A DNA stretch of 64,000 bases from Dictyostelium discoideum (lineage: Eukaryota), in NCBI GenBank assembly GCA_000004695.1, contig CM000154.2, positions 3,392,001-3,456,000 of the forward strand, read 5' to 3'. Numbering within the stretch: the first letter of the stretch is position 1; each line of letters starts with the position of its first letter. The notes under the pieces are model-generated. The model worked only from the letters and a program-made list of their open reading frames with translations. It ran no database searches and was not told the DNA's origin. Below, piece after piece: positions 23,174 to 31,368 of this stretch. The translations under genes were made by a program, and so were the position numbers.

Positions 23174-26100
23174 ATGGGTATGTTATTATCATCACTCTTT
23201 TACTTTACACACACAACAAAACCTATATGTTTTTTTTTTTTTTTTTTTTTTTTTTTTTTTTTTTTCCACACGGAGCCTTTTTATAAATTTTTTTAAATAA
23301 ATTTATTTCAATAAAAATAAAAATTTAATAAAAATAAATTTTTTCCTTTTTTTTAAAAAAAAAAAAAAATTAAAAAAAAATTAAAAAAAAAAAAAAAAAA
23401 AAAAAAAAAAAAAAAAAAAAAATACTAATATTAAAAAAAAAAAAAAAATTATTTTATTAAATAAAGAATTTTTATCAACATCCCAGTCATTGCAAATTAA
23501 CTTTGATTCTCAGCAATCAGAACAAATCCAAGTCCCAATTGGATTTGATTCAAGCCAACCTCCACAAGAGTTTGAATTTGAAACAACTCCATTGAACCAA
23601 TTACCTTTTTTGAAACAAATTGATATTGCAGCTTCTCTTTCCTTTATTCCAGCCTCAATTGAAAACCTCACAACAGAAAATACCATTACTGTTTTTCCAG
23701 TTCTTGTTGGCCAAGGTGCTTTTTCTCAACAAGATTCACTTCTTCAATTCCCAGTAAGTCTTCAAAACATCAACATCAACAATAACAACAACAGCAACTT
23801 CCAACTTGGTTTAGTACCATCTTCACCACAATCTTCTATCTCATCACCATCAACCATTGAAAGTAATTATTTATCCAATCCATCATCTCCATGTCAAAGC
23901 ACACCAATTTTGGAATCATCCACTCCCTTTTCTCAAAAATTGATGTCAAACGAACAACAACAACAACAACAACCACAAAATTTCTCTTTCCCACAAAAAC
24001 AACAGCAAGCTGTTGACCTCAATGAATTCTTTGGTTTAAATTCAGTTGGGGGTGGTGGTCATTTCAAAGCATGCTTTTCACCAGATAACAGTTTCAATTT
24101 GTACAATGATCTTTCACCAGAGGCTAAATCTTGTTTCAAAATTTTCGCTAAAAAGTGTAAACCAACCACCGAACATGAAGTCTTTAACAAGGTTATGAAT
24201 TTGTTGAACAATTTAACTCTTGAAGAAATTGATTTGATTATCAAGTCCGTTTCACGTATTGAAAAGTATGATACGCTCATTGCAAAGGTCTTTGCCACCG
24301 AACTTGATGTAGCTAACTTCCCAAGTATCAATGCCAAGCTTTTGCTCCAAAATTTATTGGTCGAAATTATTGACCAAGACAGAAAATTGGTCTACCACCT
24401 CTTCCAACTAGATACTGATCATATTCACTCACTCAAAAATAAATGTTCAATCTTATCAATCTCTACCCCAGCCAGTGATTCCCTTAATTTCTCTGCTTTA
24501 CTTCAAGAAGATAGTAATAACAATAACAATAACAATAACAATAACAATAACAATAACAATAACAATAACAATAACAATAACAATAACAATAACAATAACA
24601 ATAACAATAACAATAATAATAATAATAATAACAATAATAATAACAATAATAATTATAATAATAATTATAATAATAATAATAATAATAATAATAATAATAA
24701 TAATAATAATAATAATAATAATAATAATAATAATAATAATAATAATTGTAACAACAGCTTGGTTAATGATAGCAACACTAATATTATCAACCACACACAT
24801 AACCTAAATTATAACCAAAATCAAAACCAAAACCTCAACAACAACTATAATTACGACTACAACTTCACCAATGATACCAATAATAACGTCTACCACCAAA
24901 ATAATACTTCTCCTGCTAATAATTCTCCTTATGTCACACCAGTTTTAAAAGATAATGAATTACATTCTCAACTTTTACCTCAAATTGCTCACCAACAACC
25001 AGTTGCAGTTCTTGCTAACTATCAACATAACCAACAACAACAATCACCACAACAAATACAACAACAATTATATAATCCACATTTACAAATACTATCACAA
25101 CAAACAAATTCAAACCCACATAATACTGAAAACATTGAAGTTCCAAAGATTAAACTTCAACCAAATTTCCAATCAACAACCACCACCACAATTACTCAAC
25201 AACAACAACAACAACAACAACAACAACAACAACAACAACAAAATACTCCATTAATCTCCCAACTTATTCCAGAAAGTATTAAACCAAAGGCTTCAAATAA
25301 ATTGGCAAATAATTCAAATGGAAAGAAAGTTGGATCAAGTAAAAAGGTCTCTAAATCTGTTTTTCCAAAAGGTATCATTACACCACAATACTTTTCAATA
25401 CTTAAAGATAGATTTGGTTTCACTATGGAGTCATTGGAAAAAGCATCAAATCCAAATGGTGCAAACTATATCCACAGTTTAAATGGTTCGCTTGCTCTTG
25501 TAAACACTTGTCTCGTGCCAATCTCTAGTGAAGTTAGTACCGGTAGAGATAGTAAAAATGGTGTTGTCATCACCGTAAAAAACTATGGTGACTATACCAC
25601 CAAACTCACATTGGAATATGAATTGGTGACCTCCAACAATGAAGTCAATGATGATAAATTCTCTTTCAAAAAGAAAAATCTTTTAATGGTTGAACCAGGT
25701 ATCTTTTATTTCCAATACTCTATGAATAGAATTGACAAGAATGAAAAAGAGGTCTATATTAGATTCAATCTCATCTGCGAAGGTAAAGTCATTGATAGCA
25801 TTCAATCACCTCAAATCCGTTTCAGAAATACTCCAAGTGAATTTGATCAACCAAATAACGTTCAATTAGAGACTCTCATCGCTGATCAATTTAAAACCTA
25901 TAGTGATGACCACAGTGTTCACGTTAAATTCGTTGCTATTGCTAATCTCTTTAAGAAAGGTATCATTCCAAAAGCATCAAAAGATTCATCCTCCTCTCCA
26001 ACTGCTTCTTCTGCCGCTCCTGGTGATAGTAGTAGTGATGGTGAAGGTGATGAACAATCATCAACTTCAACTAAAAAGATGAAGAAAGGTAAACCACTCG

Positions 26101-26369
26101 AAGTCACTTTAAAACATAGCAGTGGTTTCACATTGGTCATCCCACAACACATTTCCAAAGCTAAACCAGAAGATATTTGGAGATTCCCAAAGAATTTAAT
26201 CTCTCAAACTAATATTCCAATTAAAAAATCTGAAGGTGATATCATTCATTTCCCTTACTCTTATGTTGTTGAATTCTCTGCTTTAGTTCCAAGAGGAAAT
26301 TATACCATTACTTTTGGTTATGAATTTGTCAATAAAAAAGCAAATCCAATCCATAATTTTGTTATTTAA
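23174..26369 (+). CDS. Poly-N/Q-rich protein with a conserved ~330-aa C-terminal domain. This is paralogue 1 of a tandem pair, about 968 aa, with a 4-nt first exon (ATGG).
   Basis: join(23174..23177, 23467..26369). The ORF-track start at 23490 is TTG, and the frame is open upstream with no ATG. ATGG|GTATGT at 23174-23183 gives a phase-1 micro-exon. The acceptor ataaAG at 23465-23466 puts 23467 at codon position 2, so the protein starts M-EFLSTSQSLQINFDSQQ. The C-terminal domain (KGIITPQYFSILKDRFGFTMESLEKASNPNGANYIHSLNGSLALVNTCLVPISSEV...IHFPYSYVVEFSALVPRGNYTITFGYEFVNKKANPIHNFVI) is shared with the gene at 28219-31368. Confidence 0.55.
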
Positions 26370-31200: not shown

Positions 31201-31368
31201 ACCGAAACTAATGATCCTAAGAAATCAAAAAATTCGAGTGAAATCATTCATTTTGTTTCATCTTATTTGATTGAATTCGCATGTATTATTCCAAGAGGTA
31301 ATTATGAGATAATTTTTAGATATGAAAATGTCAACAAAACAGTTCACCCAATTTATTATTCAATTTAA
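28219..31368 (+). CDS. Paralogue 2 of the poly-N/Q-rich tandem pair, with the same conserved C-terminal domain. The main exon is 28573..31368 and the candidate first exon is ATG at 28219-28221.
   Basis: The first in-frame ATG (28675, MGMISS) lies downstream of the sequence homologous to the start of paralogue 1 (DILENNSVSINIQSSISES versus EFLSTSQSLQINFDSQQSEQ). The frame is open back to 28351. I therefore infer an upstream micro-exon: ATG|GTTTGA at 28219-28227 (phase 0) spliced to the acceptor ttccAG at 28571-28572, giving M-DILENN... The intron is 351 nt and contains an (AAT)n run. Both the exon-1 call and the exact acceptor are tentative. The main exon holds a (CAA)37 poly-Q, an (AAT)n poly-N, and the C-terminal domain (KGVISPKYRSILPRFGFKMKDLEERSNINGENYIRSRKGVATLINTYLTPISAEM...IHFVSSYLIEFACIIPRGNYEIIFRYENVNKTVHPIYYSI). 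Confidence 0.5.

What the first reader, a model, noticed from the sequence alone, without database searches (positions are those of the whole stretch)
23174..31368. Tandem paralogous pair of low-complexity proteins sharing a novel ~330-aa C-terminal domain and initiator micro-exons
Genes at 23174-26369 and 28219-31368 share a conserved C-terminal domain, from KGIITPQYFSILKDRFGF / KGVISPKYRSILPRFGFK to ...PRGNYTITFGYEFVNK / PRGNYEIIFRYENVNK. The domain has no obvious low-complexity content and I could not assign it to a known family; a CudA-like DNA-binding family is one possibility, but that is unverified. Both genes also have long open frames upstream of their first in-frame ATG that are homologous to each other (EFLSTSQSLQINFDSQQSEQ versus DILENNSVSINIQSSISES). 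This is explained only if each starts with a micro-exon consisting of the ATG alone: ATGG|GTATGT at 23174 and a candidate ATG|GTTTGA at 28219. The introns after them are 289 and 351 nt. A conserved 1-codon first exon across paralogues is a striking gene-structure feature.
Basis: partly seen in the sequence, partly recalled or inferred. Interest (0 to 1): 0.6.

Follow-up and report, generated by a model that had tools for sequence, protein, structure and literature searches.

The report
Tandem orphan Dictyostelium genes, start-proximal intron
Two neighbouring social-amoeba genes encode related, uncharacterised proteins whose shared C-terminal domain is seen only in dictyostelids and is predicted to fold like the DNA-binding domains of Rel, Runt or Velvet transcription factors; the "one-codon first exon" is an ordinary intron just after the start codon, and it was placed wrongly for the second gene.

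Summary
The observation largely holds. Two same-strand genes (23174-26369 and ~27989-31368) share a ~335-aa C-terminal domain (41% identity, E=3e-82) and a weaker helical middle domain.

The gene 1 model is right. It reads ATGG|GTATGT, a 289-nt intron, then exon 2 from 23467. Exactly this 968-aa product is annotated in another D. discoideum assembly, and the splice sites are identical in a sister species.

The gene 2 model (ATG|GTTTGA at 28219, 351-nt intron) is wrong. Neither its donor nor its acceptor is conserved. The comparative model has three exons: ATGACCG (7 nt), then 28109-28163, then 28356-31368, giving 1024 aa. In this window the 7-nt exon reads AGGACCG|GA, inside a cluster of window-private substitutions that look like base-calling errors.

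The domain is not CudA-like. It is absent from the published CudA-like alignments, and hhalign gives a probability below 1%. It has no Pfam or PDB sequence match. A search of 1.84 billion representative proteins found four relatives: three from dictyostelid genomes and one from an unassigned metagenome contig.

The most likely reading is a dictyostelid-specific family of nuclear regulators. That function is inferred, not shown. Interest is modest.

The parts
23174..23177 (+). Gene 1, coding part of exon 1 (ATGG: the start codon plus the first base of codon 2)
   Evidence: Sequence. The spliced product is exactly the 968-aa protein annotated in GCA_054883475.1. ATGGGTATGT is identical in L001 and L002.
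23178..23466 (+). Gene 1 intron (289 nt, phase 1, GTATGT...AG). It holds a cluster of 18 window-private substitutions and 2 indels between 23262 and 23394.
   Evidence: Identity to L002 is 87.2% with 26 gap columns, against 94.6% with 6 gap columns for the following 480 nt of exon.
23467..26369 (+). Gene 1 exon 2 (to the TAA stop). The protein is 968 aa, 17% Asn and 9% Gln.
24018..24464 (+). Gene 1 middle domain (aa 186-334). It is probably helical and is weakly conserved across the family.
   Evidence: BLASTP against gene 2 gives 23% identity, E=2e-5. The six-sequence alignment is A5. The helical character is inferred from the sequence pattern only; this region was not modelled.
25362..26366 (+). 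Gene 1 C-terminal family domain (335 aa). Beta-sandwich 1 is ~25467-25961, the disordered acidic/Ser linker ~25974-26084, and beta-sandwich 2 ~26094-26366. The invariant RNTPS(D/E)FDxP loop lies at domain residues 155-164.
   Evidence: alignments. (AlphaFold2, pLDDT 72.6). (fold searches).
27989..27995 (+). Gene 2, position of the conserved 7-nt first coding exon. It reads ATGACCG in two other assemblies. This window reads AGGACCG followed by GA instead of GT, so neither the start codon nor the donor is intact here.
27996..28108 (+). Gene 2 intron 1 (113 nt, phase 1). The acceptor is aaaaaatAG|AT.
   Evidence: Identity to L002 is 89.0% with 31 gap columns.
28109..28163 (+). Gene 2 exon 2 (55 nt), read as (G)AT GGA TTT ... 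= DGFSTNKSKLSEGFQSEQ.
   Evidence: It is 54/55 identical to L002. The alternative frame from the ATG at 28109 (MDFPQIN...) meets a TAA stop in L002. This exon is needed to reach the 1024-aa product annotated in L001.
28164..28355 (+). Gene 2 intron 2 (192 nt, phase 2, GTTTGT...cAG).
   Evidence: The candidate ATG|GTTTGA reads ATGTTTTT in L002.
28356..31368 (+). Gene 2 exon 3 (to the TAA stop).
   Evidence: The L002 differences here include a synonymous CAG->CAA at the proposed acceptor and an in-frame 18-nt deletion.
28963..29427 (+). Gene 2 middle domain (probably helical).
30286..31365 (+). Gene 2 C-terminal family domain (360 aa, with a longer Asn/Glu-rich linker).

Best explanation
These are two real, tandemly duplicated Dictyostelium protein-coding genes of a small family seen only in dictyostelids.

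Each protein has four parts:
- a Ser/Gln/Asn-rich N-terminal region;
- a ~150-aa middle domain, probably helical;
- long poly-Asn/Gln tracts;
- after a conserved basic motif ([KR][KR]-V/I-x-K-S/T-x-P-K-x-G), a ~300-aa C-terminal module of two Ig-like beta-sandwiches joined by a disordered acidic linker.

Both genes, and the D. purpureum orthologue, have a phase-1 intron within the first four codons. The coding part of exon 1 is 4, 7 and 10 nt respectively.

Gene 2 starts at about 27989 and has three exons. It does not start at 28219. In this window its ATG and GT donor are both altered, most probably by base-calling errors in this assembly.

The function below is inferred, not shown. The proteins are most likely nuclear, sequence-specific DNA-binding regulators. 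The first beta-sandwich would play the part that the Ig-like DNA-binding domain plays in Rel, Runt, Velvet and STAT factors. The second sandwich would serve as a dimerisation or partner domain. The poly-Q/N tracts would act as activation or condensation regions.
For: Shown:
- Paralogy: 41% identity, E=3e-82.
- The tandem pair is conserved in a sister species, locus L002.
- The exact 968-aa gene 1 product is annotated elsewhere.
- The reconstructed three-exon gene 2 reproduces the annotated length of 1024 aa.
- ATGACCG|GTA is conserved in L001 and L002.
- Gene 2 exon 2 is 54/55 identical to L002, whereas the flanking introns are 88-89% identical with indels.
- D. purpureum has ATGATTTCAG|GTTCGT followed by a 443-nt phase-1 intron.
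- P. violaceum has 52-55-nt first coding exons, also phase 1.
- The family is small: 4 hits among 1.84e9 representatives, and the two named P. violaceum members are annotated as hypothetical proteins.
- The seven-sequence model has pLDDT 72.6 and shows two beta-sandwiches.

Inferred:
- The N-termini show no obvious signal peptide or membrane segment.
- Gene 1 is 17% Asn and 9% Gln; gene 2 is 19% Asn and 11% Gln.
- Invariant Arg, Lys, Asn, Thr and Ser residues sit in loops: NT..P..E.S..R, R123, and RNTPSxFDxP.
- A conserved basic motif lies just before the domain (sequences).
Against: - There is no experimental or transcript evidence for splicing, localisation or DNA binding.
- The model rests on only 7 sequences.
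- There is no sequence similarity to any DNA-binding family.
- All gene models in the other assemblies are automatic predictions.
- In the window as given, gene 2 has no intact start. If the window sequence is correct, that allele would need a different start or would be defective.
Confidence: 0.55

Rival explanations
1. The C-terminal module is a generic tandem Ig-like protein-protein interaction or scaffold domain with no DNA-binding role. The proteins would then be cytosolic or structural orphans.
Confidence: 0.3
2. One reading: the domain is a divergent member of the CudA-like (cudA / spaA / cdl1-3) family of amoebozoan transcription factors.
Against: Kin et al. 2022 recognise five cudA-like genes in D. 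discoideum. Their full and trimmed alignments contain none of the window's motifs (NTPSEF, NTPSDF, PRGNY, IPQHISK, EFLSTSQ). The cdl1a-cdl3 pair they describe is a different gene pair, and the cdl1a sequence differs. Profile-profile hhalign of the seven-sequence family against 20 CudA-like sequences gives probability 0.2-0.3%. With only the first sandwich it gives 0.9% (E=0.06).
Confidence: 0.05
3. One reading: a one-codon first exon (ATG at 28219-28221), a 351-nt intron, then an exon starting at 28573.
For: ATG|GTTTGA and CAG|GAT are present in the window and are in compatible phase. The window lacks the ATGACCG start seen elsewhere.
Against: In the sister species the donor reads ATGTTTTT and the acceptor CAG is CAA, a synonymous change. 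The stretch 28356-28572 is open, C-rich and conserved as coding sequence. The 932-aa product is not on record in the protein collection queried by exact sequence. The annotated product in L001 is 1024 aa.
Confidence: 0.03
4. In the strain or assembly this window comes from, gene 2 has truly lost its start codon and first donor. It would then be a 5'-damaged allele that either uses the internal ATG at 28675 or is a pseudogene.
For: The window reads AGG...GA where two other assemblies read ATG...GT.
Against: Over the 9.2 kb shared with L001, all 27 substitutions fall in two short patches (23273-23394 and 27990-28252), with none elsewhere. Each one makes the window base a copy of an adjacent base, 27 of 27, against 9 of 27 for the alternative base. 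L001 and L002 agree with each other at most of these sites. This is the pattern of base-calling artefacts, not of mutation. The rest of the 3-kb ORF is intact.
Confidence: 0.12

Closest known systems
Rel-homology / Runt / Velvet / STAT-type Ig-fold DNA-binding domains (the 'p53-like' beta-sandwich transcription-factor class)
CudA-like transcription factors of Amoebozoa (cudA, spaA, cdl1a/b, cdl2, cdl3; Kin et al. 2022, PMC8808424)
   Same: Both are amoebozoan, with long poly-N/Q proteins and a beta-rich core. The cdl1a-cdl3 pair is likewise a same-orientation neighbouring pair in group 3/4 dictyostelids.
   Different: The sequence family is different. The window's motifs are absent from the published alignments, and hhalign probability is below 1%. 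The CudA-like family extends to Physarum, Acanthamoeba and Entamoeba. This family was found only in dictyostelid genomes and one unassigned metagenome contig.
Start-codon introns (Nielsen & Wernersson 2006, PMC1626468)
   Same: An intron sits immediately downstream of the initiator ATG, so the coding part of exon 1 is only a few nucleotides.
   Different: The described peak is of phase-0 introns between codons 1 and 2, enriched in short, Lys-rich and ribosomal proteins. Here the intron is phase 1, after 4, 7 or 10 coding nt, in long regulatory-looking proteins.

Membership tests
CudA-like transcription factors | Conserved core with the motifs (V/I)H(V/I)VVKNxPF ... ILSSQH ... SHPIR(V/I)VSK, alignable to CudA/ECudA | tested here: not met
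   hhalign of family alignment A3 against 20 CudA-like sequences taken from Kin et al. Data S2 gives probability 0.2-0.3% (E 0.23-0.3). With the first sandwich only it gives 0.9%.
CudA-like transcription factors | Belongs to one of the five D. discoideum genes/orthogroups (cudA, spaA, cdl1a/b, cdl2, cdl3) in the published phylogeny | tested here: not met
   The strings NTPSEF, NTPSDF, PRGNY, IPQHISK and EFLSTSQ do not occur in the full or trimmed family alignments. The cdl1a sequence (DDB_G0286351) is unrelated.
CudA-like transcription factors | Binds a GAA-containing dyad as a dimer | not testable with these tools
   This needs EMSA, PBM or ChIP.
Rel homology / Runt / Velvet / STAT DNA-binding domains | Match to the family's sequence profile (Pfam RHD, Runt, Velvet, STAT_bind) | tested here: not met
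   There is no Pfam hit for the two window proteins at E<=1, and none of these families among the hits for the 7 family members at E<=10. A profile search of PDB sequences found nothing relevant.
Rel homology / Runt / Velvet / STAT DNA-binding domains | s-type Ig beta-sandwich that superposes on these domains better than on other folds | tested here: inconclusive
Rel homology / Runt / Velvet / STAT DNA-binding domains | Sequence-specific DNA contacts from loops of the sandwich | not testable with these tools
   Only conserved Arg/Lys/Asn/Thr/Ser loop residues can be pointed to.
Start-codon introns (phase 0, between codons 1 and 2) | Intron exactly between the ATG and codon 2 (phase 0) | tested here: not met
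   Gene 1: ATGG|GT, phase 1. Gene 2 in L001/L002: ATGACCG|GT, phase 1. D. purpureum: ATGATTTCAG|GT, phase 1.
Arrestin-like two-sandwich fold (considered because of the ~300-aa two-lobe beta architecture) | Arrestin_N / Arrestin_C profile match, or arrestin/Vps26 among the top structural matches | tested here: not met

The most novel reading that the evidence does not exclude
The pair represents a previously unrecognised, Dictyostelia-restricted family of Ig-fold (Rel/Runt/Velvet-like) transcription factors. It would be distinct from the CudA-like and STAT families and probably missing from current inventories of dictyostelid transcription factors. It would have expanded by tandem duplication in the D. 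discoideum lineage, with one copy (gene 2) evolving faster.
Probability: 0.3. Interest if true: 0.6.

Novelty: new variant of a known kind. Interest (0 to 1): 0.35.

Why it matters
If the C-terminal module is a DNA-binding domain, dictyostelids carry a lineage-specific family of Ig-fold transcription factors that profile-based inventories cannot see. Such a family would be a candidate player in the evolution of their multicellular development. The CudA-like cdl1 duplication is a published precedent for that kind of role.

There is also a practical point. Gene 2's start codon and first splice donor are unreadable in this assembly, probably because of local base-calling errors. Any annotation built on this sequence will mis-call the gene's 5' end.

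The 'micro-exon' itself is ordinary.

Tried and rejected
- **Word-indexed protein search with the gene 1 domain.** No hit at all, not even to itself. That index evidently lacks these proteins. The exhaustive representative search was used instead.
- **First AlphaFold run with 2 sequences.** pLDDT 43.5, unusable. It was repeated with 7 sequences.
- **AFDB Foldseek library.** Not available, so the D. discoideum UniProt entries could not be named.
- **cdl1a-cdl3 hypothesis.** Kin et al. describe a same-orientation pair. It was rejected because the sequences differ.
- **Alternative gene 2 starts.**
  - The ATG at 28109 in its own frame (MDFPQIN...) needs a poor GTGATG donor that is absent in L001 and L002, and it meets a TAA stop in L002.
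  - The 897-aa ORF from the internal ATG at 28675 is not on record.
- **Exact-sequence look-ups.** The 968-, 1024- and 932-aa products are not in the protein-cluster collection.
- **Alternative N-terminal match.** My own candidate (gene 2 DGFSTNKSKLSEGFQSEQ against gene 1 EFLSTSQSLQ...) is also not significant, p 0.07-0.11, so no N-terminal peptide homology is claimed.
- **Profile search with the middle domain.** Nothing found.
- **Finding the dictyBase ID by CDS length in an RNA-seq supplement.** Failed; the file was truncated.
- **Literature search for Dictyostelium statistics on start-proximal introns.** Nothing useful.
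Full report
**Source and setting**

The window is about 78% A+T, with coding islands rich in poly-Asn/Gln. This is typical of Dictyostelium. A 9.2-kb stretch around the finding is 99.4% identical to chromosome-scale record CM142511.1 of NCBI assembly GCA_054883475.1, fetched as locus L001. 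An 87-95% identical syntenic locus, L002, comes from a sister species (GCA_054859385.1).

**The observation**

Two long same-strand ORFs end at 26369 and 31368.
- Their C-terminal ~335-360 residues align at 41% identity, E=3e-82. There is no third copy in the window.
- A second, weaker similarity covers a ~150-aa middle region: 23% identity, E=2e-5.
- Both frames stay open far upstream of the first in-frame ATG. For gene 1 this is 159 codons. At this base composition that has a chance of ~2e-7 by my own calculation.
- The upstream regions are therefore coding, and each gene needs an ATG supplied by splicing.

**Gene 1**

- ATGG|GTATGT at 23174, an acceptor at 23465-23466 and a 289-nt phase-1 intron give M-EFLSTSQ....
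- Exactly this 968-aa product is annotated in GCA_054883475.1.
- The donor and acceptor are identical in L001 and in the sister species.
- The intron is 87.2% identical to L002 with 26 gap columns. The next 480 nt of exon are 94.6% identical with 6 gap columns.

**Gene 2**

That model was ATG 28219 | GTTTGA, a 351-nt intron, and an exon starting at 28573.
- In L002 the proposed donor reads ATGTTTTT.
- In L002 the proposed acceptor CAG is CAA, a synonymous change.
- The frame is open and conserved as coding sequence from 28356 onward.

The annotation of L001 gives a 1024-aa product starting ~320 nt further upstream. I could reproduce that length exactly with three exons:
1. ATGACCG (7 nt).
2. 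Window 28109-28163 (55 nt, read as DGFSTNKSKLSEGFQSEQ).
3. Window 28356-31368.

The evidence for this model:
- ATGACCG|GTA is present in both L001 and L002.
- Exon 2 is 54/55 identical between species, whereas the flanking introns are 88-89% identical with many indels.
- The competing frame from the ATG at 28109 meets a stop codon in L002.

In the window itself, the 7-nt exon reads AGGACCG followed by GA (27989-27997). Neither the start codon nor the donor is intact.

**Probable base-calling errors in the window**

These two differences belong to a cluster.
- All 27 substitutions between the window and L001 over 9.2 kb fall in two short patches, 23273-23394 and 27990-28252.
- L001 and L002 agree against the window at most of these sites.
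- In all 27 cases the window base copies an adjacent base. The alternative base does so in only 9 of 27 cases.

I read this as base-calling artefacts in the window's assembly, not as biology. A truly damaged allele cannot be excluded without reads.

**The 'micro-exon'**

- Only the coding part of exon 1 is tiny. The exon must also carry the 5' UTR.
- The intron position is conserved. It is phase 1 after 4 nt in gene 1, 7 nt in gene 2 and 10 nt in the D. purpureum orthologue (ATGATTTCAG|GTTCGT, 443-nt intron). In the two P. violaceum homologues it lies after 52-55 nt.
- Introns right after the start codon are a known, widespread class, although the described peak is phase 0 (PMC1626468).
- The feature is real and conserved across these paralogues and the D. 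purpureum orthologue, but it is not remarkable.
Neither is my alternative pairing.

**What the shared domain is**

- Sequence searches found no known family. There is no Pfam family and no PDB sequence relative.
- An exhaustive HMMER search of 1.84 billion representative proteins found only four relatives:
  - the sister-species orthologue;
  - one D. purpureum protein;
  - one protein on a 2.3-kb metagenome contig;
  - one P. violaceum protein, annotated 'hypothetical'. A second, 84%-identical P. violaceum copy was found separately.
- The family therefore looks restricted to dictyostelids.

**The CudA-like idea was tested directly**

- Kin et al. 2022 (PMC8808424) define five cudA-like genes in D. 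discoideum and provide family alignments.
- None of the window's motifs occurs in those alignments.
- Profile-profile comparison of my seven-sequence alignment with 20 CudA-like sequences gives probability 0.2-0.9%.
- The window genes are not CudA-like family members.

**Predicted fold**

- With seven sequences, AlphaFold2 gives pLDDT 72.6 and pTM 0.64.
- The model has a short helical lead-in, then two beta-sandwiches (residues ~36-200 and ~245-335). A disordered Ser/Asp/Glu-rich linker separates them.
- The invariant RNTPS(D/E)FDxP motif lies in a loop at the end of the first sandwich.
- Foldseek simply reports tandem-Ig proteins with low TM scores.
- The fold class is secure: two Ig-like sandwiches. 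The specific resemblance to transcription-factor domains is suggestive only.

**Mechanism (inferred, not shown)**

The following features make a nuclear, sequence-specific DNA-binding regulator the most likely reading, at about 0.35-0.4:
- no obvious signal peptide or membrane segment;
- 17-19% Asn and 9-11% Gln;
- a conserved basic motif immediately before the domain (sequences);
- conserved Arg/Lys/Asn/Thr/Ser loop residues;

In this reading, sandwich 1 is the DNA-binding element and sandwich 2 is a dimerisation or partner element, as in the Rel homology region. The main rival is a generic Ig-like interaction module with no DNA-binding role, at about 0.3.

**Evolution**

- The tandem pair is conserved in the sister species.
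- The D. purpureum locus fetched holds a single copy in a different gene neighbourhood.
- Gene 1 is closer to gene 2 (44.5%) than either is to the D. purpureum protein (41.2% and 34.4%). Gene 2 is the more divergent copy.
- This suggests a duplication near or after the D. purpureum split, but the data are thin.

**Verdict**

This is a real pair of annotated but uncharacterised genes of an undescribed family seen only in dictyostelids. Gene 1's structure was read correctly and gene 2's was not. The CudA-like label is rejected. The family has a plausible but unproven Ig-fold transcription-factor character. Interest is modest.

Noticed in passing
window 23262-23394 and 27990-28252: All 27 substitutions between the window and a 99.4%-identical assembly (L001) over 9.2 kb fall in two short patches. 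In every case the window base copies an adjacent base. The sister species sides with L001 at most of these sites. This looks like local base-calling artefacts in the window's assembly, and two of them remove gene 2's ATG and first GT donor.
   Followed up: yes
window 59742-61418 and 61668-63275 (+): A second tandem paralogous pair: two flavin-binding monooxygenase-like genes (Pfam FMO-like, E=9e-51 and 1e-58) lie 250 nt apart.
   Followed up: partly
window 34110-37893 (+): An XRN-type 5'-3' exonuclease gene whose product also carries an RRM (Pfam XRN_N, E=2e-66; RRM_1). The sister-species annotation adds XRN_M and PITH domains. This is an unusual domain combination.
   Followed up: no
window 39951-41636 (+): An intron-less ORF encoding a CitMHS-family citrate/anion transporter with a poly-Ser/Asn N-terminus.
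   Followed up: no
L002 10001-13171 (sister-species gene 1 orthologue): The annotated product (828 aa, P0001) lacks the ~140-aa poly-Asn region that the 968-aa D. discoideum product keeps. The predictor seems to have spliced the (AAT)n tract out as a ~400-nt intron. It is unclear whether this is real or a prediction artefact.
   Followed up: partly
L003 6001-7724 and L004 6001-7867 (Polysphondylium violaceum): P. violaceum carries two 84%-identical copies of the family on different contigs. This is an independent recent duplication, and these proteins lack the IPQHISKxxPEDxWRFP segment found in the D. discoideum and D. purpureum proteins.
   Followed up: partly
L006 (JGI metagenome 3300028160, 2277-nt contig): A 675-aa family member is encoded without any intron on a short metagenome contig. 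This could be a cDNA-like or metatranscriptome sequence, or it could come from an unsampled dictyostelid.
   Followed up: no
window 25311-25370 and 30247-30294: A conserved basic motif lies immediately N-terminal to the domain in all seven family members: KKVSKSVFPKG, RKINKSPKG, KRVTKSFPKA, KGKVSKTPSKTG, RRKVAKTHPKNG and RRVAKTPSKNG (the first is shared by gene 1 and its sister-species orthologue). It could be a nuclear localisation signal or a DNA-contacting arm (sequences).
   Followed up: no
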